A model generated the notes under the pieces. The model had not been told where the DNA came from and made no database searches. It was given only the letters and a program-made list of their open reading frames with translations. The translations under genes and the position numbers were made by a program. Shown here in pieces: positions 1 to 64,000 of a stretch of DNA of 64,000 nt. Numbering within the stretch: position 1 is the first letter of the stretch; each line of letters opens with the position of its first letter. Location of the stretch: NCBI GenBank assembly GCA_944391025.1, contig CALXSC010000110.1, positions 74,627-138,626 of the forward strand. Reading direction: 5' to 3'. Origin of the DNA: an uncultured Rickettsiales bacterium. GTDB taxonomy: Bacteria > Pseudomonadota > Alphaproteobacteria > Rickettsiales > UBA1997.

Positions 1-3000
1 ATGCATCTTGTGCTTCTTTAGATAGTTTACCTATATCTTTAAATGGTTTAATAGTTCCATCTACAGAAGTCTAAGCTTGTATTAAGTTTACTGGATCTAT
101 AATAGAATTATAAGTATTGTATATAATACTATTATTTATAATATGCTCTAATCTAGATTCAGAAACATTATCTAAATATAAATTATGATCATCTATAATT
201 TCCTTTAATTTAACAAAGATGTCATTAAATTGTTCTTCAGTCTAGATATTAATTCTAGAATCATTTGCCCATAAATACTTATTTAAATAACCTCTCCAAC
301 TTCTATTTTCAGGTTTTAATAATACTGTAGTTTCCTTTAACATTCTACCTAATAATCTTATATCTTCTGGACTATTAAGATTTAATGCAATTGAAACTTC
401 TCCAGTAGGTTCTAACGTTCTTAAATCTACTTCTGGACGTATTGTAAATAAACTACCATATTTTTCAAAAAATATAGCTGGATCAGTTCCATTAGATGAA
501 GCTTTAATTTCTACCTCTTTACCAGTAGGCATTGGTAATTCTTCAGATGCAGCTAACATTTCTGGAGAAGTTATATCTGCATATGGAGACCATAATTGAA
601 GTATACCATTTTCATCAATATCAAAAGGAGCAAGAGAAACGGTATCTATATCGAAATCGGACCCCTGAAGCAGAAGCTAATACGTAGAAACATACGCATT
701 ATTAACGTCAGGATTCTCAAATCCTACTACCTTCATGGGCATATAAGATTGCATACATTGAGCTGGAATACGAGCTGCAATAATATCCAATGATCTTAAG
801 AAGGAGGCATGTTTAGCTCTACCTTGTCTAATTATAGGATCAGTTTCTGGTAAACTTTGATAATTTTCTAAAGTAATATTGTGTAATTCATTACTTCTTT
901 CAATTATATCATTCGAGGTATTAGTTCCTTGTGTAAAATAATTATAATAATATTTTACCTTTCTACTTTTAGATTTTTTTAGTACATCTAATATACCATA
1001 AAGACCTGGTTTATCTGCTAATTGTGGAGATAATTTAATAGAATCAAAAGAGAACTATTTAATATAATAGTCAAGATCATCTGTAACTATCACTTCATTA
1101 TCCAATGCATCAAGATAAATTTCAGTACCTGGAGTAAGTTCATACATTATAGATTGATCTTCTCTTACTCTATATCTCTTACCATCTCGATCAATGTACA
1201 TTAAATTATTGATTTTTCTTAGATACTAAGTGTCTAGAAGATCACTAGGTAATAAATAATTATGATTTCCATTAGATGATTTTAATCCTATTGCATACGC
1301 TTCCGGTACAGGTTCATTTAAATTCTATAATCGTATATATTGCTTAATAAAGAAGTCTTTATCTTCTATAATCGAATTAACATCGTCTTCTTCTGTAAGC
1401 CCGAAAGATGTAGCAAACACTTTAGGCATTATAACTTCATAAGGTTGTATTTTAATAGATTCGTAATCTATGTCATAATAATCCCCGTTTATTTTAATTT
1501 TTCCTGCCTAATCAATAAGTCTTAATATCTTAGAAATTACCTCACTTTTATTAGTTTCATTGATTGTTATTTCATCTCCACCAGTTCTTAAAATAACACC
1601 ATCACCAGTACCAAATTTAACATTATACCATCTAATTAGAGATTCTAATATTACCTATTTCTCTTGTGGCGATGTAGTTTGATCATATAATTCTCTCTAT
1701 TTAGCATAAAATGTACTAAACTAGTCACGTATATTAACTCTAGTTTTAGAAAGATTCTATAAATCACTCTACAAACGTCTTCTAGTTAAAGTAATGGCAC
1801 GTTTTAAATAAATATTTTTATTAAGCTCAGATAACTCTTCTTTGGGAGTTATTTCTAAGAAATTATAAATAATATTATTAAGCTCCTCTAAACTTTTATC
1901 ATCCCATTTTTTCTATAATTTATCTAGTTTAAATAAATATTTAGCGGAATCTAAATCCCACAACTAGACATTTTTATTTTTTATATTTCCTGTATCCTAA
2001 TTAGTATAACTTACACTAAACCTAACATTGTATCCAGCTAAATTTCTACCATCAACTATACTTTCTGTAATTCTTACTATACTCTAATCATCTTGTAAAG
2101 CATAATAATCATCAGGCGTTTGTATATCTTTTATAGAAGTATATTGTACATACTAATCAGTATTTTCATCATATACTTCTCTAATAATAATATATTTTCT
2201 TCCTAATTCTACATTAGATATACTACTAGAAGTAGACATTCTACGAGCAGCTTCCTAATCAAGTCTATTTGCATAGTCTTCATTAGATTCATTTTCTAAT
2301 TTAGGATACACATCACTTAAAGTAGCTGCAAATAATTTTCTAGTAATATAATCATTAGTATTTTCCCCTGCTTGCTACGCCAAAAACTCTAGTACATTAG
2401 TGTTTATAGTTAAAGTATTACCATCATATAAAATACCAGATGTAGTTTCCTAACCTACAGGAGTTTCATCATAAATAATAGGAATACCATTAAAATTTAA
2501 AATACCTGGTATAAAAGAAGGTTTATCATCCCAATATACAGGTATCTACTCTCTTTGTAACTATTCTAACTATTTTTTTGGATCGGTATAAGATTCATAC
2601 TTTCTACCATTATATAATTTTAATAGTTCAAAAGAAGGAGTTAATACAGCTAATGTTCCTGGAATTTTCTACTTTATACCTGTATTTGTAAGAAATACAG
2701 AAATAGATGAAGTAACCTTAGCTGCAATAGTCGAATCAGAAAGAGGTAATAGCGCATCAGCAAACTTAATATCTTTACCATTTCTTGCCTATTTAATTAA
2801 ATTTCTAGCCATTATCTAAGCAAAATTTAACTAATTACTAGATTGATTCGCTAAAGTTTTAATAATAGATTTCATTACAACTTCTCTAAGTTTTTCTTCT
2901 GCTTTTGCTCTACTTTTTGGATCAGTTACTTTAAATATTTCTTCTAAAGCTTGAAAATATTCTTTAGATCTAATTTCAGTCTATTTTCTTAAAGCTTCAT

Positions 3001-6000
3001 ATAATTCCAAAGCCTAATCAAGGGTATATCCTCTTGCAGCTGCAGCAGACATAACCTGCGTCATTAACGACAATTCAGATTCATCTGCGTGATGTTCTTT
3101 ATCAAGCTGAATCCCAGCCTAATATAGATAAATTTCATAGAAATTTAATGGAATTTCATCATTTACATCATTATATATTTTAGCAGAATTTATGTTAGCT
3201 GCACCCTGTTTTACAGCTCCTTCGGTACATAAATAATGAACATCAGAATGTTTTAAAGGCTATATAACATCTTCCTAAGTCTATGGAACAGTTACACCTT
3301 TGTTTAAAATCATTACTCCGTTCATAGCTTTTACTAAATTTCTAATGGAAGATTCTGAAGGAACTAAATGATCATTTTTAAGTTCCATTGACCACTCTCC
3401 TCCAAAATATTTCCATAAGGCATAGTTAGAAACAATCTAAGTCTACTCTTCCTCTATTATTTCTTGACCTACCGGATTACCACGTTCATCAACTTCCTAT
3501 ATAGTTCTGCTATACCAATCATCTCCAAGATTTTGTATATTAATAACTTTATAATACTTACCATTTTGTTTATAGAAAATAGGTTCATATTCTATTTTCC
3601 CATTCCAAGATTGTGTAATGTCTAAAGTTTCAATTCCTTTATTTCTTTTAGCGTTATACCAACTAAAGTTTGTCATTTTCTTCATCAACCTCTGAAGTAA
3701 AGGAGAATTACGCATAAATTCATTAGTAATTGCGAATCCTGCTGTTTTAATAATACCTCCAGTACCAGTTCTTTCATCTTTAAAATGTACAAACTATTTT
3801 TTAGTCATTCCCGCTTTAGCTCCGCCAAGAGAATTATTTTCAAGATAAACTACCCCAGGGTGCACAAATGTACCACCATCAAAAGCCTTAATAGCAGAAG
3901 TCACTCCAGTGATAGTTCCTTGAAAGTCTTTAATATCCTCTATTACAGCAATATTATACCATCTGGGACATCCATTAAGTAAATTAAGAACAAATTCATG
4001 CATAGCAGCTGTCATAGATACATTTCTCTTATTCTAAGCATTCAATTGAAATGCTTCTTGTATGAGTACGTCCGAAGATCCACTTTTTTCTGGATGTGCT
4101 ACAAAGGAACCCACAGTGGTAAGCATAAATTCCTATGTAAACAAGTAATCCAAATCGTTAAATTGTTCTATTAGTGGATTTAATTGAATGTCATTTATAT
4201 TATCTAAAATCCAACTTTCATAATCAGTTTCTCCACTTTTTATAAAGTCTCTAGTAGATGTTATAGGTCTACCATTAATTTTAGCTAATATTAAGTTCCC
4301 AGAAGCATCAATCCAATTAAGGGCAGCTTCTTCACTACTATATTTACTTCTAATCCATGCTAATTCTGGCTACTTAGTATTGGTTGTATTTAATTTAAAA
4401 TTTTCTTTAAGTAAGTCAGTTAATACTTGTGCTTTCTTTTGTAACCAAAATGATTTACCAGAAGGAAAACTTTCTATTTCATCTGTAGTAAAATCAAACT
4501 CAGTACTTAAAACTTCAGGCTAAAATCTAGCAATCTAAGATAAGATTACTTGATTAAAATATAAATCACCTTTACCTGTTTTACGATAGTGTACCTAATC
4601 AATAAATCTTAAGGGTTTTAAATCTTCAGATGATTCATTTACCTTATTTATTAAATAATCCAAATACTCCTTAGGTGTTTCTATATATGATCCATAAGTC
4701 TACTATATAGTTTCTATATTAGCATGAACAAACTCATTAAATTCCTTCCATATTGTATTGATATTTTTATTAGTAAATGCAGGTAAAGGAATTTTTAAGG
4801 ATCTTGCAGACTAGAATAACTAATATACATCCTACATGACAGAATTAAGCATATTAGAATATACATTTCCTAATTCGTGTGCAATTAATGCTTTTCTCTC
4901 CTATGAATTTAAGTCTCGTATTTTCTTAGTTTGCTATACTCCATCTTCTATTACAGTTACTTCCTAATTTAAATCAAAAGGCTTTCTACTGACAGTATTT
5001 TTATCAGAATTTACAGAAGGCAAGAATAAAACCTTTCCATTTCCATTTATCGGATTTTTATCTGAATCTTTTTCCATTAATCCCCCGGCAAAATCATATA
5101 CTAACCCAGATGTAATCATTTCGTTAATACTCATTTTATTGGATTGTACTGATCCTGTGTCGGGATCATAATATTCTTTCAAGGTGTAAATTCCTTCAGA
5201 AAGTGCTGGATTAGTTAATATTAAAAGATCTTTAGTAGCAGAATCCTCATTGCGTTCCTAAAGTTCATATTGCTATTGATATGAACCTAATAGTCTACTT
5301 AATGTTTGTTGACTCTAAGTATTACCTTCGCCATCTTTAACTTGTGTAGAACTTGTCGTACCTAAATAATTAGCTCTTGCTGTAGCAAGACTACGTAATA
5401 CAGGAATATCGTTACTATGTACTAAACTATCCAGTGTTATATTATTAGCTTCTATCTATTTATTATAAATATAGGTGTTAAGCACTACTCTGGATGCAAA
5501 TTCTAATAACTATCTATAAGTACTACTAGATTGATTATTACCAAGTCGAGCATTTACTTCATCCCGAAATTCAGATTGATTAGATAAATTTAATTGTAAT
5601 ATATCATCAATAAAAGGAAGAACTACTTTATAATCTTTTGCAATACTAAAATTAGATGGAGAATTAATCGTAACTTGTCCAGTAGCTGTTACAGTTATTT
5701 GTAATTCTGTATCAGGTATATTAAATGATATACTAGTTACATTATTTCCTAATGCGTTTTCTCTAAGATTATACTAATTTTTAAAAGAATCCCATTTTCC
5801 TTTTGCAATAGCTTTATTTCTAGAATTAATGGTAAGTTCTATACCTCTACTATAATTATCAATTGAACTATCTAACATTGGTCTGACCGTAATATTACCA
5901 TCCCTTCCTTTATAGTATTGAGCTAACTTAACTTCAAAAATAGAATTTACAGTCTATACTATATTACTATAATAATCACGTTCTGAGTTCGGGTCGGATA

Positions 6001-7411
6001 ATTCTCTAATACTTTTAGGTCCATTAAATAATGCTAAATCCAGAGAATATAATTTATTTAATTCATCTCTTGTGAAATCCTTAAATAAATCAGTTTCTTT
6101 ATTTTGTATGGTTTTATTAGATAATATTTTAAATAATAGATGACTATATTTTCCAGAATTAACTACTAAATTACAGATAAGTTCTCGTAAAGTCATATCT
6201 TGAATTGTTGCTAATTCTTCTTTAGTGAATCCTTTGTTTTCTAAACCAAGTCGTTGAATATAATTACTATCAAATCTTATATTAGCGGTACTTCTATTAT
6301 TAGCAAGATCTTTAATTTTTCCGATAATGTGCTGAAAATCATTAAAATTAAGATACCTTCCAACCATTGGAGTATTTGCTTGATTTAAATATAAAGGTGA
6401 ATTATTTACAGCTTGTCTAGTTACAAAATCGGATTCAGAAGCTATATCAATATTTTCACTATTTCTCCATGTAGTAGCAATTTTAGTAGTTTTTGTATCA
6501 ATTTTATATTTATCTTCTGTCATTAAATTAAAATTCTTTATCTACATTATATTACCACAATAATTAAGTAAATAAGAATCAAAATTTCGTAAAATTACAG
6601 CAGAATTATAGGCATCTAGTTCTTCCTTAGCACTGTTTCTTTGAGAAGAATTAAGATTAGAATCAGTCATCATACTATACAATCTAATAAGATTATCAGG
6701 AGATTTATTAAGTATATTTCGTTCTATCATATCTGATAATCTTTCTAATATACTAGTATATTTTCCATCCTAATCATATAGTCTAGCAGTTCTTAATAAC
6801 TCTTTTAATTCTTCCGACGCATTTGTACCTCTTACTCTTTCTCGATTAAGATATGTTGTAATATTAGATAATAACTATTCCTAATAATTTCTAATATTAC
6901 TATTCATTTCAGAATTAGTATTTACAGTACCTGATTTAAAGTTATCAGAATATCTATTAACAAATAAGCAATCAAATAAATCGCTGTTTGTGACATGTTG
7001 TACATAATTCAATACAGATGTAGCAGTGCCGTAGGCTTCATAAAGAAACTCTTTAGAAGCCTAGGCATTTACCTCTCTATATTCAGGGTTAGATAACTAA
7101 TCTACACTAATATCATTATAATTAACCTACTAAATATTATCTTTTATCTACTTTAAGGAATCCTAAATAGTTGTTAAGGTAAAGACATTAGGAAATTGAG
7201 CTAGTATTCCCCATCTTTCCGCAGAATTTTTTATTATTTCTGCCATATCTTGATAATCATTATCTGTTATATAAGTATCCGTTAAAGTCCTATATAATGT
7301 AGATAACTATTTAAGAAATTCTCCAGGAGATAATTCATTATTTTTATAAATCCTGAATAAACCTCCTAATTGTTTCTATATTCCTCTAGAATCAATATTA
7401 CATTTATCCAT
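1..7411 (-). CDS. giant virion-type RNA polymerase-like protein (crAss-like vRNAP), C-terminus beyond window start; needs TAG read-through
   Basis: ATG is + strand cat 7409-7411, one nt after the upstream TAA. Track ORFs at 242, 3497, 3794, 4964, 5954 and 6542 share one frame and each stops at TAG (+ cta). Hand translation from 7411 to 242 met no TAA/TGA. It contains IIAARIPAQCMQSYMPMKVVGF...LLLQGSDFDIDTVS. Confidence 0.7.
644..658 (-). other. DFDID (DxDxD) putative catalytic metal-binding motif of the RNAP-like double-psi beta-barrel
   Basis: Minus strand reads tcc gat ttc gat ata gat acc (S-DFDID-T), 33 codons upstream of the Met at 559. It is preceded by an ARIPAQ...S..M segment analogous to the RxP...S..M element upstream of NADFDGD in cellular RNAPs. 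Confidence 0.55.
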
Positions 7412-7412: not shown

Positions 7413-10400
7413 TTAAAATTTTATTGTTATCACATTAGCTAAAGAACAAGAATTTGTTGACTATTTTTGTAACTCATTATCATACTTCATTAGAGTTTGT
7501 ATAGCAGAACTTAATTCTTTTTTCAATTCTTCATTTAATATATCTTTTGGCTAACTTTCTATTTCGTTTTTAGCCTTCTCATAGCTACTTTCCATACTTC
7601 CTTCGATGTACTATCCATAATTATCTTTAAACTCTTGGTAATTAGCTGATGCATTTAAAAGATCTGCAAAATCAATGTCATTATTCATAACTTCATTTAC
7701 AATATCTATATTCTTTATTATAGTATTGAAAGCTTTAGCAAGTTCAACATCATCCTAAGTCGGCTAGACTATCTCTTCTAACTATAACTATTCATTATCA
7801 TAACTAGCATTGTATGTTTTTCCATCAATATCTACTCTAAAATAAGAAACTCCTTGAATAGCATCAGGAATTTGAGTTATAGCGTTGTTTTCGGTATCTA
7901 AAAGCATAATCTATCCGGATAGTGTATCATGTTTCTTGCTTATAACTAATTCACCTTTATTATTTATAAATGCTATTTTCTTATTATTCTTTTTGTTTAT
8001 TTCATTAACAGCATTCCTTAGCATTTCTTGAATAGTTACAGAAGTATCTAGTTCTATGCCGCTATTTTTCTTTACTCTATTTTTTAGAGTTAGTTTATCC
8101 ACATCTTCTTTAGATAAAATATTCTAATTTATACTAGAACGTCCCATAAAATAATTCTAATGGTCTTCTTTTGTACATTTATGGTTTTTATTTTTAGGAG
8201 TAGGTACTAAAGCATTTAGAAAATCTTTAACTAATCCATCAATACTTCCTTTAAATATAGGAGAATCCATTTTACCATTAATCTAATAAGGTTTTCCATC
8301 TATAGAATAAGTATTCTAAGGTGTAACAGCATAGAATGGACCCATAGTAGGACTTGCCTTTCTTGGAATCCATGCATCATATCTAACTCCATTATCTTTT
8401 CCTATAATTCTTTGAACTAGATTTACATTACCTTCATTAAGACCTATTACAGTAGAATTTCCTCTTAAATTATTTACATCATATAAAATATGATACATAG
8501 CCATATCAAGCATTCTAGCTAAAGTTATTCCGTTTTTAAATCCAACAGAAGACCAATCCTAAGAAGAATCAAATAATGCATTTTTAGCAGCTTCAAAGTT
8601 TCCAGAACTCATTAAATCTAGTATGGTTTTCCTCGCTTCATAAACTTTATCATATAAGCTTTTATTTCTATTTTGAAACATGTTATTAAATTCATTATTA
8701 TCCATTAACTGATTAAATAATAAAAAGGATGTAAACATGTTTCCTATATGCTTTTTACTGTCTCTATCAGTTTTATTAGAAGATAATGCAAGTCTAAGAT
8801 TTTCTGCATATTCTCTAATTGAAGCAGCTGGAGGATAAACGTACATCAATTTAACTCTAGGCTATACACTAGGATCAGATAACTGTTTTTCAAAATATTC
8901 ATATATTTCTACATCAGTAGTAAGAGTATTATCATAAGAAACTAAAACAAATGGATTACCTTGATTACATACCTTAACATCATTACCAGTAGCATCAGTT
9001 ATTTTACCATCTAAAGAAACATAAACATGATCAGTTACTCTTACACTAGGATTTTCTTTAAACTTATCAATAGTTGTCCATTCTTTCTATGGATTACTAT
9101 TAGAATCATAATCAAAGCCAGGAACAGATTGATATTTACCTCTTCTAGTAATAAATTGAGGACCTATACTTGTAAATCCATTAACTATAGTCCAATTATC
9201 ATCATGTATAAACTATATAGTTCTGTCAGTAAAATTAAACAACTTTAATAAATCAACTAAATTTTCATAGTATTTATTATTCTCAAATTTACTTATCAAT
9301 TCAACTACGGCTTCATGTACAGTTTTCTTATCTTCTTTAATTAATTTATCGTATAATACAGACATTTCTGAAAATACATAAGCTCCATTCTCATCCTACA
9401 TTTTTAATAATGTTAATGGAGAAGATGGAGCAAGTAATGGCAATTCCAATAAGTCTCCGTTTTCTTTAGTCCCTATAATCGCCACTAAAGCTCTATTATG
9501 CCATTCACTACTTCTTGCATCTGAAGATCCGTTAAATAAAGTACGTTCTTCCTTACTCTTATTAAATGGAGTTGGATCAGATTCTAAGAAGTTTAACTTA
9601 TTATCTTTATCATGTCTGGCATGATTTTTTAATCCAAATGTAACATAAACTCCTTGAAGATTTAATTGTCTTTCAATATCTTCTATTAATTTAGCTTTTT
9701 CTTTAATAGTAAAGAAACTATTTCTTAAATTGGCTAATATAGAAATAAAACTCTGTAATCCATTTTCAGATTTATGTACTTTTCTATCTTTAATACCATG
9801 CAAATCATCGATTCTTAATAACCCATTTACACTATCTTTTCTTGCACGCTGTCTTTTAATACTTTCTTCTGGATTATTAGGATCGTTACCAGTAGGAGCT
9901 TTAGGTAAATCAGTTTTTTCATCCACTAAGCATCCTAATTCAAAAGTATTAAAAGAATGAAGAAGCATATCTATCTAAGCAACTCCATTTTCAATAGCTG
10001 CACTAGAACGAGGCGGATTTTCAGATTCGTTAGAGTTATCAATAGCATCTTTATATTCTTCATTAGAAAGACCCTATGTTAAAACTGCAGGAGCTTTATT
10101 ATCAGAATATTCATCTTTTTCATCAGCTTCGTGATCTTCTGCACTATTGTCAGGAGGATTTAATTGCTTAACTACGCCTAAAATATCCTCTCTTTTTATA
10201 GTTTGATCATCAATTCCTTCGCTTTTAGATTTAGCAGATACTGCTACCTTATAATTACCAGAATTAATTTCTGTTATAACTCCAAATACTTCCTAATCTT
10301 TGAATTTAAATTTTATAATATCCCCTACATTTAGTTCACCATCTCTCTGGTTAATATTTATATTGTCGACAGATAGTTGACTTAACTAAGCTTTTTCATC

Positions 10401-36568: not shown

Positions 36569-36609
36569 TAAAATCCCCTCCTAAAATGTATTTGTCTAAT
36601 CAGCTTTTC

Positions 36610-50075: not shown

Positions 50076-50634
50076 AATTTAATATCCCCTTAACATGTAA
50101 ATTAACTATTTTTTGCTTACCTTCTTTAGATAATAAGAAATCTACATCTTCTTTATTATCTTGAAATAAATTTTCAGTTAATACAGAAGGACATTTTGTG
50201 TCTCTACAAATAGCTAATGATTGTACCCAATAAGACTTATCAGCATATTGCCGTCTTATTTTTAATCCAGTAGCTTCTTTGGCAATAGAATCTGCTAATC
50301 TAATAGAATCTTTAGAAGCATTCTGAGCTACAAAAACACTCCACCCATTTGCTTGATGCCAATTATTGTCATTAGCAGAAGCATTACAGTGTACTGATAT
50401 TAAAATAGCATCTTTTCTTTCTTCGTATATTTTATTAGCTCTTTTTACTCTATCATTTAATGGAATATCTATTTCTTCTGGAACTAGATTGATACATTCT
50501 ATATTATGCTTTTTTAATTCATTTTCTATTTCATGTATAATCTCTCTAGCATAAGAATATTCCTGAAGTCTATTGTCAGGACTGCGTTTTCCTGGAGTAT
50601 TTACTCCGTGACCTGGATCTAAGATAACAATCAT
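50062..50634 (-). CDS. N-acetylmuramoyl-L-alanine amidase (Amidase_3-type endolysin), TAG-free
   Basis: This is the 190-aa track ORF: MIVILDPGHGVNTPGK..., ILISVHCNA..., TENLFQDN, which are typical Amidase_3 zinc-ligand regions. The stop is TGA. Confidence 0.8.
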   Translation of the reverse strand: MIVILDPGHGVNTPGKRSPDNRLQEYSYAREIIHEIENELKKHNIECINLVPEEIDIPLNDRVKRANKIYEERKDAILISVHCNASANDNNWHQANGWSVFVAQNASKDSIRLADSIAKEATGLKIRRQYADKSYWVQSLAICRDTKCPSVLTENLFQDNKEDVDFLLSKEGKQKIVNLHVKGILNYGNT

Positions 50635-55592: not shown

Positions 55593-55610
55593 AATTGTAT
55601 TTTAAATATA

Positions 55611-55746
55611 TTAAAAATTACCTCCAGCATAAATCTCATTTTTCTTGCTTAATAAAAGCAATTAAATCTTCTAAACTTGTATCTTGAATTAAAGCTTCTT
55701 CAAATTTAGCTTGGGTAGGAACCTATACAAACTATATCCCATTTTT
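55611..55746 (-). pseudogene. decayed copy of the tail-fibre N-terminal module (no start codon, frame broken at A-runs)
   Basis: Lies in the 170-nt spacer. ..FVQVPTQAKFEEALIQDTSLEDLIAFIKQEK*, then NEIYAGGNF* in another frame, parallels MKFVQAITKANFQEQLVSDPSLQDCIAFIEDTSEIYARGKYY of gene 55763..56293. Confidence 0.45.
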
Positions 55747-55762
55747 TTACTGTTGCCGTATA

Positions 55763-56293
55763 TTATTCTATTATTGCCCATTTATTAGTAGTACCTCCTG
55801 AACCGATTTCGATCCAATCTGTTCTCCATGATCCTGCTTCCCAGTATCTAATATACATCTTACATGTATCTCCTGCAAATAATACTTGGTGTACAACTGC
55901 ACTTCCAGATCTATAAATAGATAATGTAAAATTATCTACACCTTCAGGTTTACCTGTTATGTGATTACCTCCGTAAGCATAATATAAACCTGCATCAGTT
56001 ATATTATATAAATCATCGAGATTCTAGTTAGTGAGTTGTTTTTCCTGACCAAATATTTTTCCTGTTAATTTATTATTTGTATTTGTTATTTCTGTACCAA
56101 TAGCATTAATATAAACTGCTATTGCTTCTCCTAACGAATTAAATAGCTCCTAAGTAACAAAACAAGAATAATACTTTCCTCTAGCATAAATTTCAGAAGT
56201 ATCTTCAATAAACGCTATGCAGTCTTGCAAGGAAGGATCGGATACTAGTTGTTCCTAAAAATTAGCTTTAGTTATCGCCTATACAAATTTCAT
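55763..56293 (-). CDS. short tail-fibre/receptor-binding-type protein (176 aa)
   Basis: ATG at 56293, TAA 55763-55765 (residue count verified). It shares the N-terminal module with the 575-aa fibre. Confidence 0.55.
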
Positions 56294-56295
56294 AA

Positions 56296-56898
56296 TTATA
56301 CTATCTATACATATATATTTACTAACTCATCTAAATTATTATATACTGGGATACCTGTATCCCTAGTACACAAATACACTACATTGTTCTATATATAATA
56401 TTTATCTTTATTCAATTCCATATTTCCATTATAAGGAATTGGATCAGATAAAGTACCTTCATGTTCTACTTCAACTATTTTCCAAAGAGAAGATGTTTCT
56501 ATCCTAGGTTTCCAATTATCCTAAGTTGTATGAGACTAAATACATTCATATAATGTATCTTCACACAAATATCTTTCTCCTTGATTTACTTGTAAATTAC
56601 TTTTCCAGACTGGAAAGTACTATTTAACTGATAGAGATTCCTTAGCAGTTAAATTAAATGTATTTATACTTTTATCTATATTTTTAGTAAAGAATAAATC
56701 TCTTACTTTAGTTTCAACATCTTTTCTGTAGTAATACTGTTCTTCTGTTTCTTCTATGGGTAAAGTATTTAACTCTTCAAACATTTCTTCTGACATAGTA
56801 CTATTTATGCGGCATCTTTTAAAATAAGATGTAGTATTTTTCAATCTTATATATTTACCATCAGTACTATATATTTCATTATTTTCAATCTTTAACAT
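56296..56898 (-). CDS. 200-aa protein with a CBM5/12-like (chitin-binding-type) carbohydrate-binding motif
   Basis: Track ORF 56620..56898 continues through TAG to TAA at 56296-56298. WKSNLQVNQGERYLCEDTLYECIQSHTTQDNWKP...SLW resembles the W..G..Y..G..V.Y.G..Y.C...HTSQ..W.P pattern. Confidence 0.45.
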
Positions 56899-57881
56899 TA
56901 TGCTTTAGCTAATAACATTTTAGTATGATTTTCTAATTGCTATAGAACATCAGGATCTTGTATAGCTCTATTATAAGCTGATTCATGCAAAGTAATTGTA
57001 ACAGGATTAGTTAATTCTGCATCACTTAATCCGTTATATAACATTTTATATACACTCTACGCAGTTAAACTAGGACAATCCGCAAAAGATATATCAATTT
57101 TTATTTTTCTAATATCACAATCTTCTAAGGATGTACATCCTTTAAATATCTAATGCATATTATCTGCCGTAGTTACATTTGATAAATCAATATATCCTAT
57201 AATTCTCCTTAATTTAGATGAATTACCAAAAGCATTTCTTGCATTACTTGTTTTTATTCCATCTCCTTTATTAGGAATATACAAGACTTCAAACTAGGTA
57301 TTTGCGCAAAAATTATACATAGAAGTTTGGCCATAATCTACATCCCAGCATTGTCTTGGAAATAAATTTGCTCTTGCTGGATTATTAGCATACATAAATG
57401 CCATATTAGAGGGGTGTCCATAATCGTATACAGCATTAGCTATCATTACTGCCATCTATTCCGAAGTTATATCCATCAATCCTGAATACTAAAAATACCC
57501 TGTATCTTCATTGTAGCTTACTCCATAATAAGAAGTTGCTAGTAATTTTAAAGTTTCTATATTAGGTTCATTAGCTATTGCTAAGGATTTAATAATATCC
57601 TAAGCATTTTGTGTAGCAGAAATAGCATTGTTTGTAGCCTATACTGCTTCCTAAGTCTTTTTTTCTAAATCAGCTATGGTTACATCGGGCATAGTACGCC
57701 AAGCTATATCAGAATTATTATGTGCAGATAATACTTGTAAACTAGAAGTTTCATTAGCAGTTACCTCAGGTAGATTTGAGAATATTACTGGGGCTTTAGT
57801 TATCCAGTCCAAAGTATCTGTAAATACAGGAGTTCCATTACTTTGCGTATTAAAAACATGATCAACAGTAAGTAATTCCAT
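56898..57881 (-). CDS. 327-aa tail-associated protein, possibly BspA-type leucine-rich repeats
   Basis: Track ORF 57651..57881 continues through TAG to TAA at 56898-56900 (TAATG overlap with the next start). It contains segments such as FKGCTSLEDCDIRKIKIDISFADCPSLT. Confidence 0.4.
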
Positions 57882-57889
57882 ATTTTATA

Positions 57890-57931
57890 AATTAAAATAG
57901 AGAGAACTCTCTCAAATAAAGAGAGTTCTCA
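57890..57931 (-). terminator. rho-independent terminator
   Basis: Minus strand reads GAGAACTCTCT-ttatttg-AGAGAGTTCTC followed by TCTATTTTAATTT, after the TAA at 57944. Confidence 0.7.
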
Positions 57932-57943
57932 CTAAAATATATA

Positions 57944-59431
57944 TTATTCAATAGTTTGCCATTCTAATTGACTTACAGAAGAATCTACCTTAGCTTCCAA
58001 TTTACCTAAAGCAGAGTTGATTGTATCTGTAGCAACAATGGCAGCACTAGTACCCTTAGCATACCCAGTAAGTACACCTTGTGAACCAGCAGTGGTCTTT
58101 GTTAACAAATTAGCTACTACAATAGAATCAAGTTTAGCTTTATCTTCTTTAAGCATGTAACCATCTGCAGAAGACGATACTGCAGGAATGGTTACTACAC
58201 CAGCAGAAGGATTAATTGCAGCATTAGAACCTAACTTAACCTATTTAACTGCAGCAGAAACAGCATTAGTGGCATCCTTCACTTCCTGATACAATTCACT
58301 GGTCATATAACCATCAGTAGCATCAGTAACAGCGGGAATAGTTACTACTCCATCAGCAGCTTCAATAGTTTCAGTACCTAACTTAATTTCTGTAATCTAA
58401 CCATCAGATAAATCATTTATCATCGATAATAGATTCTAGGTAGCCTAAGTTAAATTACTTGCACTACCAGGAAGACTAGTTCCAGTACCAACGATAGTTT
58501 CTAATGAAGTAACTTTACCATCTGTTGTAGGTTTCCAGGCAACTAACTGATCCAAATTAACTTTATCGGTCTTAGACATAACACCAGCGAATCCGTCAGT
58601 AGCAGCAGCAATTTGGAATGTTGCACCTAATACAGGTTCACCGTATTTGTTATCGTCACCCTTTGCAACAGCTCCTAATTGAATAGTTACCTGAGTATCA
58701 TTAGCAGTAGCCCCAGCACCGTGTGATCCTGTGATAATCTAATCAGGAAGAGAATCAAGAGCTTCTCTATTAAGTTTACCCTTATCACCTGCGTAAGCTG
58801 TACTAGAAGTTTCTCCTAAAGTAATAGAAGCAGAAATTTCTACATAAGCTGAACCACTCCAACGATAAGTCTTGCCTGTATCAATAGTTACATAAATCTT
58901 ACCAGTTTGCTTAGCATTTCCAGTTTCATCAGACTATAATGCAGCAAGATTTTCATATTCAAGAACATCATCAACGTAACTAGGTAAATAAGTAGCTTCA
59001 ATCTTAGAATCTGCACCAAGTCCTACAAAACCATTAGGTTGATTCTTCTGAGAAGCTAATACATATCTAGATTCATCAAATTCTAAATCTTCTAAAGTTA
59101 AATCTAAAGATGTACCAGAAAGAGCATGTCCGTTTAACTAGAAAGTTTTATCTACTTTTTTCTCTAATTCTGTACCTACATTACCAGAAATATCAGAACC
59201 TACTTTTACCCAAGATCCTTCCTGAGTAATATTTTCAGGATCATTAAGAATATAGATGGCTTGTTCATCTGTAACTACCACAGCCATACCTAAATAGTAG
59301 TTCTTATCTGCATAAGTACTGGCGGTAGTTAAATCAGCTTTTGACTAAACTACAAGCCTAGCATCCAACGGGGCCTACCCAGTCGGTTCAAAGTTTACCG
59401 CGAAAATAGCTGTACCTTTACTTCTTGCCAT
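57944..59431 (-). CDS. tail fibre protein (495 aa)
   Basis: ATG at 59431 lies 19 nt after the upstream TAA and is preceded by TAGGAGGA. TAA is at 57944-57946. Product begins MARSKGTAIFAVNFEPTGQAPLDARLVV...YYLGMAVVVTDEQAIYIL.... It also has repeated GFAGVMSKTDKVNLD, DGYMTSELY and DGYMLKEDKAKLD motifs. Confidence 0.7.
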
Positions 59432-59450
59432 AATTTAAATCCTCCTATAA

Positions 59451-60578
59451 TTAAACGTTAGCAACTGTGAAACGTAATTGTAATGCCCCACTAAGTGCAC
59501 CTGTAGTAGTCAACTTAGTATAAGCTACCTGAGCATCTTGAATAGTCTTATTTCCAGCAGCAGATGTGGTATACCCACTAAAGCCTTCCCATTTACCTGA
59601 TACTGTATTCATAAATTCTACTTTTGTTACTTTCTTTGTAGAGGGGAATTCAAATACCAATCTAGTTCCAGTAGCAGCTTCAGAAGCAAACTTAGCTCCA
59701 ACTAAGGTGTCAGTCCATTTCTACAACGGAAGTTTAGTATTTGCAGTTACTGCCGAAGGAAGACTACCATCTTGATTCTAACTTGAAGCAGTAGCTCCAT
59801 TGCAGAAGTAAGGATAAGTACCATAAATAGTTACAGCTCCAGAATTAATAGTACCTGCAGTAAGGGGATTAGGGGATATACTAGCCTTATTGCCCTTAGA
59901 AGTTACAAGAAGATCACCCTATTCATAGGCAGCTTGATAATTATACTGCATAGGTCCTAATACGATCTTTTCCGGCAATGTTTTATTAGTGGTAGCACCT
60001 CCATAATAAATAAAGCTTTCTCCAGCTTTCAGAGCACCAGCTCTATTCTGATTAGGCTTACCAGGGCACGTTACAGTACCTCTATTAAAGCCAGTTGTAA
60101 AGTTAGTAGCTGCAGCAGGAGCAACAGCACCTACTTCATAAATACCATTTGCAGAGAATCCACTCTTTAAAGAAATAGAAGCAGAAGGATTCCCTACAGT
60201 AGGCTATACTTCAGGGAAAAGTAAATCATCCAATACCTAAGAAACAGTCTTAGCTTTAAGAGATTCGGCAGTAGTACCCTTAGCAATACCACCAATAGCA
60301 TTCGGAACTGTCAAGTCATCAGGCATAGCGGATTCATATTTTTTTAATTGATTTAAATCGTGAATAACTTCTTCCGTATCATCAGAATACTGAACAGTTA
60401 ACTGTCCATTTGAATACGTTACATCTTTTACTAATTTGTAAAGAGATTCATTAAAACCATAGACCTAATCTTCTACGATAATAACTCCTTCATCTGTCGC
60501 AAAATAAATAATACCTACTTTAGAATCAAGAGTATCGTATTTTTCTCTTAGACCCTTATAAAATTGCACTTTCGCCAT
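59451..60578 (-). CDS. tail fibre/receptor-binding protein (375 aa)
   Basis: ATG 60576-60578. TAA at 59451-59453 is the stop of track ORF 59451..59660. The N-terminus is MAKVQFYKGLREKYDTLDSKVGIIYFATDEGVIIVEDQVY. Confidence 0.55.
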
Positions 60579-60579
60579 A

Positions 60580-61494
60580 TTAAACGTTTATCCAATTTAA
60601 TGATTGATTAAATTCATCTAAACTAACTGAAGAAATAATCTCATTATTTCTATTCTTCAAATCTAAAAAAGAGTCCCTAATCTCAATAGAAAAACCAGCT
60701 TTATCTACTTCATCAATAACCTATTCTAAAGTAGAACCTGAACCATATCTATTTCCGTTAAAGTAAATATAAGGCTAATTAGTAATAATATAAAGTGTAC
60801 TAGGTTCTGGTTCTTGTAACAGCTAATACTATTCATAGGAAATAGAATCGATCTTTAAATACTTGCCAGTGTTTCCAATAGGAATTCTACCCGCTAACTA
60901 ATCTCCTTCTCTAATGATCTGTACTCCAGAATTAGTTGTTGAAGAAAGTTTAATTTCAGCATAGATTCCATTTCTAGTAGTCTTTAATTGTACAGGAGAT
61001 AGATAATTATTAGAACTATCTATTTTAACACTAGCCTAGATAATATTATCTATAATATTAGTTTCAATAGTATCAGAATCAATAGCAGATAAAATTATAT
61101 TTCTTAAATCTACTACAAATTCTTCCCCTGTATTTAATATTAAAGACAGTACTTGTGTTCCTAAAGGATAAGGAGAACCCTATTCTATATCCTCCTAAGT
61201 AATAGTTCTATAAGTAAAAGATTCAATATTAACTGATTTAGGAATTTGTACAGAGGTTAATACAGAACCTGTATTACTATATCCTACAAGTTCATACATA
61301 CTCTAATCAGCAGGATCGTCTCTTAACTATAAAGAACTAATACCAGGAGCAGTGTTTATAAAGTTAGTTAGAGCTTTTTCTGTTAGAATAACATCATCCT
61401 ACGGAGTAGTTGAAGGCGTTTCAGATACCCTATAATTTCCGTAATTTATCCATAAGTAGTCTAACTAACTCATGCCAGAAGGACGGTTACTCAT
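60580..61494 (-). CDS. hypothetical tail protein (304 aa)
   Basis: ATG 61492-61494 overlaps the upstream TGA (ATGA). TAA is at 60580-60582, one nt before the next ATG. It has about 14 in-frame TAG. Confidence 0.5.
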
Positions 61495-62315
61495 TCAATT
61501 GTACTCCAACTAATTAAAGCTGACACATCTGGGAGTTGTTCCTTAGGAACTTTACCCTCCACGAGATCAGCTTTATTTTGTAAAACTGTATTAAGAGCTT
61601 GCCCGTTATGAGTAATCTTTTCAGAAGTGCCTTTTACGATCAAAGCGTTACCAGATTCTTCAAGAATGTTTGTAGAATCTTCAGCAATATTCACATTACC
61701 TTTAATTGCATATCCGTTCTAAACTTGAGATATAGCAAAATTAACTGTACCTGAATTATTAGCTTCAATTGTAACTCCTAATATTAAATCCTATAAAGCA
61801 TTAGCCATTTCTGTAAGGCTAGAATAAGGTAAAGTTTTTAAATAAGAAACAATATCATCCTAATCAGTACCTACTATTGCTTTTAAATCAGATTCATTTT
61901 TAGCATGAAGATCTTTAATATCTTCAACCTCATTAGCTAAATCATAAAGGCTGTTTAAATCGGAAGGAATCACATCATAATCGGAAGTCCCTATAATAAT
62001 CTAATTCCAATTCTATCTATCTTGTATTTCCTAATTGACTTTCTCTATTAATTCATCTAAAGTATCTATAGAAGAATCTTGTAATAATTTTACAAATTCT
62101 AATTTACCTTCATTTTGAACAACCCAATATAGTGCCTATTTACCATCACCTCCATTTTCTACTACCTTAAGTAAACCTTGGTGAAGGGTAGTAGCATTAA
62201 TTGGGTCATTATAAAATTGCGTTAGGTCTTCTACAGTCGGAAAGATATAATCCGATTCTATCGGATAATTTCCTAACCTTTTAAAAGAACCTATTATTTC
62301 ACTATATTGACTCAT
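61491..62315 (-). CDS. hypothetical tail protein (274 aa)
   Basis: ATG at 62315 lies 207 codons upstream of the start of track ORF 61491..61694. TGA is at 61491-61493. Product begins MSQYSEIIGSFKRLGNYPIESDYIFPTVEDL.... Confidence 0.55.
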
Positions 62316-64000
62316 TCTTTATTAAAATTAAATGTAATTTCTTGATTTAAACTCGATAAAGCCTATCTATAAATATAAATAGTAAATATTACACCATTCT
62401 CAATTCCTTCTACCTAAAGCGGGATCTGATCAATTACTTCAAAAGCATCTATCCCAAAACTCTAAGTTTGTGTAGTCATAGAATATAAAGCAGGATAAGT
62501 CTAAGGAACTACAACAAAAGGTTGTCTTAATTCTGGATCTTCAAACTAATATTTAAATGTAATAGTAGTTAAATTATCTCCATACTTTAAGAATCGATTC
62601 TACGTACCATTAACATCTTCTATTTCCAATTCTTTGAGATAATCCATTGTAATTGTAGCTCCAGGTTTCCATTTAGGTAATAATCCTACAAATACTGGAA
62701 GATAACATTTAACTGTAGAAGAAACCTAATGTGTAGCATCATTAGTGTAATAAACTTTAAAAATAAATTCGGTATCTTCAGAAATAGGTAAACTATCTAT
62801 AGTAACACATCCATCTTCAAAGTTATCTTTTTCTAATACTTCTATTACTTCTCCATTCTAATATAATTCGGCATAATTTAATAAAGCAAGGGAACCATGA
62901 ATACATAAAGTAACAGGCAATGTATTACCTATCGTTACATAATCTGGATGAGTAATACTGATAGTTTTACCATAAAATATAGAATCACAAACTTCTTGGA
63001 AAGTCATAGTTTCAGGAACTTCTGAATTATCTTCCATATGTCCTACTGTAGATTCAATAGGACCTGAAGTGTGCCATACTAAATTAGCTTCTGATGTATC
63101 AGTGGCATTTAATAATTGTCTATATGTAACTAACTAATCTTCTGAAATAGCATCTATCCCAGAAATAGGAGCTTCAAAAGCAACTGTACCATCAGCTTTT
63201 ACATAATTAGATCTTTCAATAGTATCTAAAGTATTATTAATAGGATCAATGTAATCATGAATATTACTATCAATAGAACTATTTACTAGATTATTTACTA
63301 CTGAATCTACCTAAGATCTAGAATAAGTTTGTGATTTAGTATAAGTATCGTCTTTCTTAGCATAAGAAGAAAGTCTAGAATCTAAGATACTTATAAAATT
63401 ATGAGGATCAGGTTCAAGTAAGTGAACCTCTAATAAATTATCTGCATATCTCTTAGTCACTAAATGACTGCTAGTAGTAGGATCTACACCAAGCTGAGGT
63501 TTAGTAAAAGGAACTGAACCATCAGACTTAACGTAATTTTTAAGATTAGAATTAATTTCTGCTTTAGTATATAATTGTGATTTTAAATAAGTATCACTTA
63601 ATTTCATATACTAATTGAATTTATTATCTATATCTACTAAACTCTACTCTAATGCAGTATCCTTTTGATTTAGTGAAGTAATCTAGCCATCTACATATTT
63701 TTTAGTAGCTAGATCGTTATCTTCTGTAGGGATCTAGCCTTTCTATCTAGCAATAAACGGAGTAGAACCGTCAGTCTTTACGTAATCGTTTAAGATAGCA
63801 GTTAGCTATGCTCTGAGTGCAGCTGTATTTTTAGCTAGTTCTACTGCAACTGTACTTGAAATTTGACTTTGAGTTTCAGCTTTAGTATAATAATCATTAA
63901 GAAGAGTATCTAACTCTTCGTTACCTACAGCATCTAGATTATACCTAGCTTGCTATTTACTTAATTCATCATCAAATTCACTTAAACGATTAGCTGCTCT
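62312..64000 (-). CDS. large tail fibre protein, N-terminus beyond window end
   Basis: The frame is open from 64000 to TGA at 62312-62314 (ATGA overlap) and includes track ORF 63311..63607. It has repeated ..Y[VY]K.DGS.PF......L[AV]TK[KR]Y[VA]D fibre-type motifs. Confidence 0.6.

What the first reader, a model, noticed from the sequence alone, without database searches (positions are those of the whole stretch)
1..64000. TAG is a sense codon across the whole late-gene block (table-15-like recoding)
All minus-strand track ORFs that I checked inside the large genes end in TAG, and the same frame simply continues. With TAG read through, frames stay free of TAA/TGA for 7.4, 9.0, 5.7 and 5.2 kb. 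That is implausible by chance in such AT-rich DNA, where TAA would otherwise be frequent.

Genes defined this way end in TAA or TGA. They abut the next start with ATGA, TAATG or ATGNNTGA overlaps. Recognisable motifs lie downstream of TAGs in the same frame, for example DFDID at 644-658, Walker A/B at 11.5-11.9 kb and the fibre motifs.

TAG often sits next to CAA or CAG. It makes up 10 of 94 codons in 20904-21188. This fits the Gln reassignment reported for crAss-like and other gut phages, but the amino acid identity cannot be proven from this window.
Basis: partly seen in the sequence, partly recalled or inferred. Interest (0 to 1): 0.8.

Follow-up and report, generated by a model that had tools for sequence, protein, structure and literature searches.

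The report
Amber codon read as glutamine
This stretch of a large crAss-like gut phage reads the stop codon TAG as glutamine throughout its structural genes, which is a known habit of such phages, but the suppressor tRNA gene that should make this possible is itself split by a 1-kb mobile intron that ordinary tRNA finders miss.

Summary
With TAG as a stop, minus-strand ORFs of 80 aa or more cover 18.5% of the window. With TAG as sense they cover 94.1%, with frames of 9015, 7420, 5718 and 5280 nt. Random sequence gave at most 570 nt.

Codon-level alignments to five related contigs show that TAG exchanges mainly with TAG, CAA and CAG. A likelihood test picks glutamine in all five comparisons (combined delta logL 137).

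Portal and terminase similarity, a roughly 160-kb contig, dense introns and a DFDID RNA polymerase place the phage near the Zeta-type crAss-like phages. Late-gene TAG or TGA recoding is already published for that group, so the finding itself is ordinary.

The new part lies about 16 kb beyond the window on the same contig. It is a tRNA(CUA) gene split between U35 and A36 by a 1012-nt insert that carries an HNH endonuclease ORF and a group-I-like core.
- Default ARAGORN and Rfam miss it.
- Eight relatives have an uninterrupted tRNA(CUA) at the same locus.
- Seven other contigs carry the homologous insert at the same anticodon position in different tRNA bodies.
- The halves covary across the insert: 14 of 21 pairs have compensatory changes.

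Splicing has not been shown.

The parts
1..64000 (-). Continuous block of minus-strand virion, tail and lysis genes in which TAG is a sense codon. There are 537 in-frame TAG, and every complete gene stops at TAA or TGA.
   Evidence: ORF coverage is 18.5% under table 11 and 94.1% with TAG as sense.
2..7411 (-). Giant virion RNA-polymerase-like protein. At least 2470 codons lie in the window, with 70 TAG, and the gene runs off the left end. The DFDID catalytic-type motif is at 644-658 and is uninterrupted here.
   Evidence: There are 110 homologues of 2.1-2.4 kaa.
7413..16391 (-). Protein of 2992 aa with 92 TAG. Walker A is at 11835-11858 and Walker B at 11502-11522. The orthologue in relatives carries a weak AAA_30 hit.
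   Evidence: Used together with the polymerase for the TAG-to-codon tables.
25632..36613 (-). Two large structural proteins of 1748 aa (46 TAG) and 1904 aa (67 TAG).
20904..21188 (-). Small gene with the highest TAG density, 9 of 94 sense codons.
43025..47935 (-). Major head protein gene in seven exons: 47935-47549, 46262-46140, 44809-44582, 44342-44295, about 44101-44016, 43777-43643 and 43378-43025. Six introns separate them. TAG is sparse, with about 5 in the mapped exons.
   Evidence: Rfam Intron_gpI hits at 45987-46148, 44345-44617, 44102-44307, 43794-44015 and 43417-43650. Exons were mapped with intact homologues P0372 and P0367. Those homologues hit phrog_11589, major head protein, at E 3e-13.
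44853..45971 (-). Intron-borne GIY-YIG/NUMOD homing endonuclease ORF of 372 aa. It has 0 TAG among 11 Gln codons.
   Evidence: binomial p 4e-4; NUMOD1 E 1.5e-20; SegE_GIY-YIG weak.
46278..47372 (-). Second intron-borne endonuclease ORF of 364 aa. It has 0 TAG among 12 Gln codons.
   Evidence: p 2e-4; NUMOD1 E 1.8e-10.
50062..50634 (-). N-acetylmuramoyl-L-alanine amidase (lysis enzyme). It has 0 TAG among 7 Gln codons, so it can be read in the standard code.
   Evidence: p 0.007; Amidase_3 E 1.6e-29.
53865..64000 (-). Run of tail-fibre-like genes, all with in-frame TAG (4-17 each). The last gene runs off the right end and continues in L008.

Best explanation
The window is the core of the late (virion, tail, lysis) gene block of a crAss-like gut phage of about 160 kb. 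In this phage UAG is decoded as glutamine.

Shown:
- TAG is a sense codon in almost every gene of the block.
- It supplies about half of all glutamine positions.
- It is evolutionarily interchangeable with CAA and CAG.
- TAA and TGA are the only terminators.

Inferred mechanism: an amber-suppressor tRNA(CUA) encoded by the phage is charged with Gln by the host enzyme and competes with host release factor 1. Long TAG-rich late proteins are then made only once the suppressor is present.

A tRNA(CUA) gene lies about 16 kb beyond the right edge of the window on the same contig, at the end of a divergently transcribed operon that is also rich in TAG. It is split between anticodon bases U35 and A36 by a 1012-nt insert. 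The insert carries an HNH homing-endonuclease ORF and a group-I-like ribozyme core.

Inferred: the insert is spliced out of the RNA, so production of the suppressor depends on splicing.

Genes that must work without the suppressor stay free of TAG. These are the intron-borne endonucleases, the amidase, the first genes of the block and the genes next to the tRNA.
For: TAG as a sense codon: ORF restoration is specific to TAG and far beyond chance. There are 537 TAG, which is 51% of TAG+CAA+CAG. Total Gln becomes 5.23% with TAG counted.

Conservation and exchange: against the 91%-identical relative L001, the window's TAG codons align to 124 TAG, 12 CAG, 5 CAA and 15 other codons. In the reverse direction, of the 16 L001 TAG codons that are not TAG in the window, 9 align to CAA/CAG and 7 to other codons. 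Against L004, whose gene fragments hold no internal TAG, 15 of 34 window TAG sites align to CAA/CAG.

Likelihood: empirical-matrix likelihoods rank Gln first in all five comparisons, with a combined delta logL of 137 over the next amino acid.

Same genome: L008 and L013 match the window and each other with 0 mismatches over 2375 and 10652 nt.

The split tRNA:
- ARAGORN in intron mode finds tRNA(cta) at L013 c[2951,4035] with a 1012-nt insert at position 36.
- The in-silico spliced sequence is 81% identical to the CUA suppressor of the Prevotella Lak megaphages, E 3e-10.
- Eight relatives have an uninterrupted tRNA(CUA) at the syntenic spot.
- Seven further contigs carry a homologous insert at the same anticodon position in two other tRNA(CUA) bodies.
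- The cloverleaf on the spliced sequences is 99.2% paired. 14 of 21 pairs have compensatory changes, 10 of them in the two stems that bridge the insert. None of 500 shuffles reached this.

The insert:
- The base before the 5' splice site (position -1) is U and the last base of the insert (omega) is G.
- HNH scores 25 bits against a Pfam cut-off of 21.4.
- Core helices P3, P4, P6, P7, P8 and P9 are 97.9% paired with 3 compensatory pairs. Slid controls reach at most 51%.

Literature: TAG=Gln in late genes of crAss-like phages is reported in PMC7886860 and 10.1101/2021.08.26.457843, and was confirmed by metaproteomics in PMC9523058.
Against: - No RNA or protein data exist for this phage, so Gln identity and splicing are both inferred.
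- The Rfam group I model scores the insert at only 14.6 bits against a gathering score of 50 (E 0.19 in a 301-nt search). It found nothing in the 10-kb search.
- A sequence profile built from the window's own introns does not find the insert.
- Only a 3-bp P1 pairing (UCU with GGA) is visible.
- ARAGORN's intron mode produces false calls elsewhere. It reads the MT835539-type copies as tRNA-Lys(ctt) under another splice choice.
- Only about 84 kb of the roughly 160-kb genome could be read. A second, intact suppressor or a release-factor gene elsewhere cannot be excluded.
- The tRNA sits downstream of TAG-containing genes, which does not fit a simple 'suppressor first' order.
Confidence: 0.85

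Rival explanations
1. TAG is a sense codon but encodes an amino acid other than glutamine, for example Glu, Lys, Tyr, Trp, Ser, Leu or pyrrolysine.
For: ARAGORN labels every CUA tRNA 'tRNA-Pyl' by convention. Glu, Lys, Ser and Asn are also seen opposite TAG in the distant comparisons. By plain similarity the tRNA also resembles tRNAs annotated Asn, Trp and Asp.
Against: Gln has the best likelihood in all five comparisons, and the next candidates trail by 137 or more log units combined. CAA, which is two mutations away from TAG, is a frequent partner. Counting TAG as Gln brings Gln from 2.6% to a normal 5.2%. No pyl genes were seen.
Confidence: 0.04
2. The split tRNA(CUA) gene is a dead copy destroyed by an invading HNH endonuclease gene. 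Suppression in this phage would then come from another tRNA, either elsewhere in the unread half of the genome or in the host.
For: The insert fails the Rfam group I threshold. Only about 84 kb of roughly 160 kb was read. Zeta-type phages usually carry 17-29 tRNA genes in a block elsewhere in the genome (PMC12386605). Splicing has not been observed.
Against: Three different tRNA bodies that carry the insert all keep perfect acceptor and anticodon stems across it, with many compensatory changes. The insert core keeps its helices, with compensatory changes in P3 and P9. Only one of the possible splice choices gives both U at -1 and G at omega, and that choice yields CUA in all copies. The copies persist in at least 8 contigs from different samples whose flanks are TAG-recoded.
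Confidence: 0.2
3. The TAG codons are real stops. The block would then be decayed pseudogenes, an assembly artefact, or genes expressed by occasional context-dependent read-through rather than by reassignment.
For: None beyond the bare fact that TAG is a stop in the standard code. No tRNA is found in the window itself.
Against: Identical sequence occurs in independent assemblies from ENA and Logan. 124 TAG positions are conserved in frame in a relative, while TAA and TGA never appear inside the frames. With 537 sites, up to 92 per gene, leaky read-through could not yield full-length protein. The neighbouring codons checked (CAA/CAG or TAG next to TAG) show no enrichment.
Confidence: 0.01

Closest known systems
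TAG-to-Gln ('code 15') recoding of late genes in crAss-like and other gut phages (Yutin et al. 2021, PMC7886860; Borges et al., 10.1101/2021.08.26.457843; Peters et al. 2022, PMC9523058)
   Same: In-frame TAG is concentrated in structural and lysis genes. The termination codons are TAA and TGA. The phage encodes a tRNA(CUA). Glutamine is the inferred residue. The genome is AT-rich.
   Different: Here the suppressor gene is interrupted in the anticodon by an insert that carries an endonuclease ORF. The amidase is TAG-free, whereas those papers report lysis genes as preferentially recoded. No close relative is present in GenBank phage records.
Zeta group of crAss-like phages (Yutin et al. 2021; PMC12386605)
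   Same: Contigs of 145-190 kb, about 30% GC and many group I introns. The capsid gene is split by introns, and the RNA polymerase is disrupted at the DxDxD motif in relatives. A PDDEXK nuclease lies in the structural block. TAG or TGA recoding varies between close lineages. Both papers note recoded genomes in which no suppressor tRNA can be detected.
   Different: Placement in the Zeta clade was not tested by phylogeny. I showed only 25% TerL identity to classified Crassvirales and a portal match to crAss001 gp20. Neither paper describes intron-split suppressor tRNAs.
Suppressor tRNA(CUA) of the Prevotella Lak megaphages
   Same: It is the best database match to the spliced tRNA: 81% identity over 70 nt, the same UGGGG acceptor start and the same anticodon loop CUCUAAA.
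   Different: The Lak genes are uninterrupted, and the phages are unrelated megaphages of about 540 kb.
Bacterial group I introns in tRNA anticodon loops, such as cyanobacterial tRNA-Leu(UAA) and Azoarcus tRNA-Ile (Williams preprint 10.1101/2020.01.27.920355; Hausner et al. 2014, PMC3984707)
   Same: The insertion lies inside the anticodon loop, with U before the 5' splice site and G as the last intron base. P1 is short. A homing-endonuclease ORF is present, and intron-less alleles exist at the same site.
   Different: The host gene is a phage amber suppressor, and the site is between bases 35 and 36. The 2014 review states that all phage group I introns then known were in protein-coding genes. 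The Rfam model does not reach threshold here.
E. coli supE (glnV44) amber suppressor (from my own knowledge)
   Same: It is a tRNA-Gln derivative with a CUA anticodon that inserts Gln at UAG in competition with RF1. The phage tRNA shares U1, G2-C71, G3-C70, G10 and U35 with E. coli tRNA-Gln.
   Different: The phage tRNA has G72 and A73 instead of A72 and G73. Its charging enzyme is unknown.

Membership tests
Stop-codon-recoded phage, TAG = Gln (code 15 type) | Conserved genes are broken by in-frame TAG and are restored only when TAG is read as sense. | tested here: met
   coverage rises from 18.5% to 94.1% with TAG as sense. TGA and TAA give no gain.
Stop-codon-recoded phage, TAG = Gln (code 15 type) | TAG positions align with glutamine, or with CAA/CAG codons, in homologues. 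| tested here: met
   The test was done on DNA, because the database proteins had already been translated with TAG=Q.
Stop-codon-recoded phage, TAG = Gln (code 15 type) | The phage encodes a suppressor tRNA with a CUA anticodon. | tested here: met
   None in the window. One lies on the same contig at L013 c[2951,4035], split by a 1012-nt insert. Eight relatives have uninterrupted copies.
Stop-codon-recoded phage, TAG = Gln (code 15 type) | Early and replication genes are in the standard code, giving a code switch during infection. | tested here: inconclusive
   The genes around the tRNA and the first genes of the block lack TAG. The replication module of this genome could not be read.
Stop-codon-recoded phage, TAG = Gln (code 15 type) | Peptides carry Gln at TAG positions. 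| not testable with these tools
   Shown for other crAss-like phages in PMC9523058.
crAss-like phages (Crassvirales), Zeta group | TerL, portal and capsid proteins are homologous to those of crAss-like phages. | tested here: met
   The portal matches crAss001 gp20 (PDB 7QOG) at E 7e-12. The TerL C-terminal part matches annotated Crassvirales terminases at about 25% identity, E down to 1e-8. Homologues of the capsid gene hit a major-head-protein PHROG.
crAss-like phages (Crassvirales), Zeta group | The phage falls inside the Zeta clade in a TerL or other marker tree. | not tested
   No tree was built, and reference Zeta sequences were not on hand.
crAss-like phages (Crassvirales), Zeta group | [quoted passage not shown] | tested here: met
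   The longest contig carrying the window's proteins is 160,799 bp. There are six introns in the capsid gene and two endonuclease inserts in TerL. DFDID is present.
Group I self-splicing intron (the insert in the tRNA) | The catalytic core is recognised by the Rfam Intron_gpI covariance model. | tested here: not met
   14.6 bits against a gathering score of 50, and no hit in the 10-kb search. I therefore call the insert group-I-like and do not file it as a member.
Group I self-splicing intron (the insert in the tRNA) | Helices P3-P9, including the P3/P7 pseudoknot, are conserved and supported by covariation. | tested here: inconclusive
   The hand-drawn helices are 97.9% paired with 3 compensatory pairs in 5 sequences. 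Depth is low, and the structure was drawn from these same sequences.
Group I self-splicing intron (the insert in the tRNA) | U precedes the 5' splice site, G is the last intron base, and splicing restores a functional exon. | tested here: met
   The spliced exons give a covarying cloverleaf.
Group I self-splicing intron (the insert in the tRNA) | A mobile element with a homing-endonuclease ORF, and intron-less alleles at the same site. | tested here: met
   HNH passes the Pfam cut-off. There are 8 intron-less alleles. The same insert occurs in 3 tRNA bodies.
Group I self-splicing intron (the insert in the tRNA) | Self-splicing activity. | not testable with these tools
   This needs an in-vitro transcript or RNA-seq.

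The most novel reading that the evidence does not exclude
The amber-suppressor tRNA of this phage lineage is made only after a mobile, HNH-encoding group-I-type intron splices itself out of the anticodon. That would be a group I intron in a phage tRNA gene, a class the 2014 review says had not been seen. It would also mean that intron-split suppressors invisible to standard tRNA finders account for part of the 'missing' suppressor tRNAs: by published count, about 60% of TAG-recoded phage genomes have no detectable TAG suppressor. Splicing could then add a timing step to the switch of genetic code.
Probability: 0.55. Interest if true: 0.7.

Novelty: new variant of a known kind. Interest (0 to 1): 0.55.

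Why it matters
The recoding itself matters mainly for annotation. Under the standard code this 64-kb block looks almost empty of genes, and public protein sets translate it in different ways.

The intron-split suppressor matters more. Two surveys and a family-level study all report recoded phage genomes with no detectable suppressor tRNA, and they attribute this to divergent tRNAs or to host factors. Here is a concrete and checkable cause: a roughly 1-kb endonuclease-bearing insert inside the anticodon. It is present in at least eight gut-phage contigs, and its two tRNA halves covary.

If the insert splices, tRNA searches in recoded phages need an exon-aware step. The homing endonuclease would also be targeting the one sequence that every amber suppressor must keep, the CUCUAAA anticodon loop. 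In addition, expression of the whole late proteome would hang on a ribozyme.

Tried and rejected
- PHROGs on ten window proteins and Pfam on eight more gave no hits.
- A peptide-pattern search of IMG/VR with the polymerase segment found no close relative. Megablast of 24 kb against GenBank phages found only a 35-nt match.
- My first Gln tally used database protein sequences (Q enriched 5.8-fold at TAG columns). I set it aside when the look-ups showed that those proteins had been translated with TAG=Q. I redid the test on DNA.
- L004 first looked like a standard-code relative. Its gene fragments end in TAG and continue in frame, so it also uses TAG sparsely. It is still valid as a source of true CAA/CAG codons.
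- Default ARAGORN and Rfam (E up to 1) on the 10 kb that holds the tRNA found nothing.
- nhmmer with a profile of the window's five introns did not find the tRNA insert.
- ARAGORN's intron mode is unreliable on its own: it gave spurious tRNA-Thr and tRNA-Ser calls in Lak-like loci. The case for the split tRNA therefore rests on homology and covariation.
- The polymerase segment and my concatenated capsid exons had no PDB sequence match. The capsid identity came from intact homologues instead.
- Similarity of the tRNA to annotated phage tRNAs does not discriminate the isotype.
Full report
**Observation.** The window is 29.8% G+C, and every credible gene lies on the minus strand.
- Under table 11 the longest stop-to-stop frame is 1119 nt.
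- If TAG alone is read as sense, frames of 9015, 7420, 5718 and 5280 nt appear. Making TGA or TAA sense gives nothing comparable.
- One hundred first-order Markov simulations of the same strand gave a longest TAA/TGA-free frame of 360 nt on average and 570 nt at most.
- Minus-strand ORFs of 80 aa or more cover 18.5% of the window under table 11 and 94.1% with TAG as sense.
- The 39 genes called this way hold 537 in-frame TAG in 20,082 codons. The complete genes stop at TAA (31) or TGA (7).
- The genes abut through ATGA, TAATG and ATGCCTGA overlaps or gaps of 1-2 nt.
- Two small points fail. The gene at 20904-21188 has 9 TAG, not 10. TAG is not enriched next to CAA/CAG, with 33 neighbours against 26.6 expected.

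**Which amino acid.** The C-terminal 1368 aa of the DFDID protein found 110 homologues of 2.1-2.4 kaa, on contigs of up to 178 kb.

A first tally on these proteins showed Q enriched 5.8-fold at TAG columns. The contig look-ups then showed that most of those database proteins do not translate under table 11. They had been called with TAG=Q, so that tally is circular.

I therefore worked on the DNA of five loci, L001 to L005.
- In L001 (91% amino-acid identity), the window's TAG codons align to TAG 124 times, CAG 12 times, CAA 5 times and other codons 15 times. Of the 16 L001 TAG codons that are not TAG in the window, 9 align to CAA/CAG and 7 to other codons.
- In L004, whose called fragments hold no internal TAG, 15 of 34 well-aligned window TAG sites face CAA or CAG.
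- I built substitution tables from the same alignments. The likelihood of the residues seen opposite TAG is highest for Gln in all five comparisons. Combined, Gln leads the next candidate by 137 log units.
- TAG makes up 51% of TAG+CAA+CAG, and counting it as Gln gives 5.23% Gln overall.

This agrees with the published reading for crAss-like phages (PMC7886860) and with metaproteomic proof in two of them (PMC9523058).

**What phage this is.**
- PHROGs and Pfam name almost none of the window's proteins.
- GenBank phage records hold only distant relatives, with under 30% identity for the polymerase segment.
- The portal, found on the extension of the same contig, matches crAss001 gp20 (PDB 7QOG) at E 7e-12.
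- The terminase C-terminal part matches annotated Crassvirales terminases at about 25% identity.
- Proteins of this genome occur on a contig of 160,799 bp.
- The genome is full of introns.
- Relatives carry a PDDEXK nuclease in the structural block.

These are the traits Yutin et al. give for their Zeta group. I did not build a tree, so that placement is a lead and not a result.

**Extent and unevenness of the recoding.**

Reading beyond the window. I extended the window on its own contig through proteins P0111 and P0351. L008 and L013 match the window and each other without a mismatch. A position x in L013 corresponds to window coordinate 84021 - x.

Upstream of the window lie, in order:
- the portal, with 29 TAG;
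- a terminase gene split by two inserts that carry LAGLIDADG endonuclease ORFs;
- a GroES-like gene and a 302-aa PDDEXK nuclease, which open the block and have no TAG.

A divergently transcribed operon (L013 8480 to 4587) is also recoded. Its 190-aa lysozyme-like gene has 13 TAG.

Inside the window, TAG is avoided in several genes:
- the two intron-borne endonuclease ORFs (0 of 11 and 0 of 12 Gln codons; p 4e-4 and 2e-4);
- the amidase (0 of 7; p 0.007);
- TAG is also scarce in 39059-40171, 41245-42108 and the capsid exons.

The LAGLIDADG ORFs that interrupt the polymerase gene in relatives are likewise TAG-free. One of the terminase-insert ORFs has 5 TAG, so avoidance is a tendency and not a rule.

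**The suppressor tRNA.**

Where it is.
- The window has no tRNA, and neither do the first loci fetched.
- In relatives L009 and L011, ARAGORN finds a tRNA with anticodon CUA about 8 kb upstream of the GroES-like gene, after a 144-149-aa gene.
- On the window's own contig, default ARAGORN and Rfam find nothing there.
- The sequence after the orthologous 140-aa gene nevertheless reads as the 5' half of a tRNA ending in GGTCTCT. A 272-aa ORF follows, then 175 nt, then AAAACCGT and a T-arm and acceptor strand.
- ARAGORN in intron mode calls tRNA(cta) at L013 c[2951,4035] with a 1012-nt insert at position 36.
- In window terms this is about 79,986-81,070, on the plus strand.

Why the two halves are one gene. 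Intron mode alone is weak evidence, since it produced spurious calls in other loci. The case rests on the following.
- The spliced sequence is 81% identical over 70 nt to the CUA suppressor of the Prevotella Lak megaphages.
- Eight relatives that cover the locus all have an uninterrupted tRNA(CUA) at the syntenic place. Six of them (L023-L026, L029, L030) share the window phage's anticodon-arm sequence GCGGTCTCTAAAACCG.
- A homologous insert occurs in seven other contigs, with an HNH ORF of 272 aa and a 169-nt core that is 80% identical. The contigs are GenBank MT835539.1, three IMG/VR contigs of 94-108 kb, a 173-kb ENA contig and two more.
- In those contigs the insert sits at exactly the same place, CTCT|...G|AAA, but inside two other tRNA bodies with different acceptor and anticodon stems.
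- On the in-silico spliced tRNAs plus two Lak tRNAs, the cloverleaf is 99.2% paired. Fourteen of 21 pairs show compensatory changes, ten of them in the two stems that join the halves across the insert. None of 500 shuffles reaches these values.
- The flanks of those loci gain ORF coverage only when TAG is sense, and default ARAGORN finds no tRNA in any of them.

**What the insert is.**

In favour of a group I intron:
- The ORF passes the Pfam HNH threshold and has a weak NUMOD1 match.
- The base before the 5' junction is U and the last base of the insert is G. Of the possible junction choices, only this one satisfies both rules, and it yields CUA in every copy.
- In the alignment to the family consensus, P3 (CUUCUUU/AAAGAAG), P7 (GACUA/UAGUC) and P8 are visible.
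- On five sequences, the helices I drew (P3, P4, P6, P7 as a pseudoknot, P8, P9) are 97.9% paired. P3 has two compensatory pairs and P9 has one. Slid controls reach at most 51%.

Against:
- The Rfam group I model gives only 14.6 bits on the 3' part, far below its gathering score of 50.

The structure was drawn from these same sequences and the depth is low. I therefore call the insert group-I-like and rate splicing as likely but unproven.

Bacterial tRNA genes are known to hold group I introns at several anticodon-loop positions, with the same U/G rule (10.1101/2020.01.27.920355). A 2014 review states that all phage group I introns then known were in protein-coding genes (PMC3984707). My literature searches found no report of an intron in a phage suppressor tRNA. 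The library searched is partial.

**How it most likely works.**

Shown:
- TAG is sense and behaves as Gln.
- TAA and TGA terminate.
- The genome holds a tRNA(CUA) gene whose halves are under selection to pair.

Inferred:
- The primary transcript loses the insert by self-splicing.
- The mature tRNA is charged with Gln. It shares U1, G2-C71, G3-C70, G10 and U35 with E. coli tRNA-Gln (from my own knowledge), but differs at positions 72 and 73.
- The charged tRNA then competes with host RF1. Proteins with dozens of TAG codons are completed only once it has accumulated.
- The TAG-free genes can be made at any time.

This is the code-switch model of Borges et al., with splicing as an added step.

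Two facts fit that model poorly. The tRNA lies downstream of TAG-rich genes in its own operon. The amidase is TAG-free, although that study found lysis genes to be preferentially recoded.

**Verdict.** The intron-split amber-suppressor tRNA does not appear in the papers I could read. Those papers do record that suppressors go undetected in many recoded genomes: only 40% of TAG-recoded genomes have one, and similar remarks appear.

Noticed in passing
window 43025-47935 (minus): The major head protein gene is cut into seven exons by six introns. Five have significant Rfam group I hits, and four are compact (about 190-265 nt) and sit back to back with exons as short as about 48 nt.
   Followed up: yes
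window 644-658; L001 16730-18129; L002 16769-19557: In most homologues the giant RNA-polymerase-like gene stops exactly at QGSD|(F/Y)DID, inside the catalytic-type motif. It resumes after an insert that carries a TAG-free LAGLIDADG ORF. The window's copy is uninterrupted at this site.
   Followed up: partly
window 42345-42836 (minus): A third GIY-YIG-like ORF of 163 aa lies just downstream of the capsid gene and holds 3 in-frame TAG, unlike the two intron-borne endonuclease ORFs with none. It may be free-standing or decaying.
   Followed up: no
window 50062-50634; L013 6420-6992: The Amidase_3 lysis enzyme in the window has no TAG. The lysozyme-like gene in the divergent operon outside the window is among the most heavily recoded, with 13 TAG in 190 codons. 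Published work reports lysis genes as preferentially recoded.
   Followed up: partly
L013 12103-16623 (same contig, upstream of the window): The large terminase gene is split into two coding parts by about 2.6 kb that holds two LAGLIDADG-type ORFs, one with 5 TAG and one with 1. Relatives L009, L011 and L023 have an unsplit terminase, and L025 has one insert.
   Followed up: partly
L009 1672-1760; L011 1807-1883; L023-L030; alignment A2: Suppressor tRNA(CUA) genes at the same locus in phages whose neighbouring GroES-like proteins are 83-90% or more identical have quite different acceptor stems (UGGGG, UGCCC, UGUCC). L009 has an extra 16 nt in the variable region. The suppressor seems to be replaced or to evolve much faster than its neighbours.
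   Followed up: partly
alignment A3, columns 9 and 39 (tRNA insert core): Two positions in the insert core vary together as T/T, C/C and A/A (and once C/T) across copies. This is not Watson-Crick pairing, and I have no explanation for it.
   Followed up: no
window 44123-44157: A 35-nt stretch inside one capsid-gene intron is identical to a stretch of uncultured crAss-like phage cr118_1 (MT774379.1). This was the only megablast match of 24 kb of the window to GenBank phages.
   Followed up: no
L004 10001-19558: A 178-kb relative that the database called in the standard code uses TAG only sparsely. Its long genes appear as fragments that end in TAG and continue in the same frame. This may be an early or reduced stage of recoding.
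   Followed up: partly
L013 10001-10591: A GroES-like (Cpn10) co-chaperonin gene sits near the start of the late block and is TAG-free. It has more than 1000 homologues in the protein collection.
   Followed up: no
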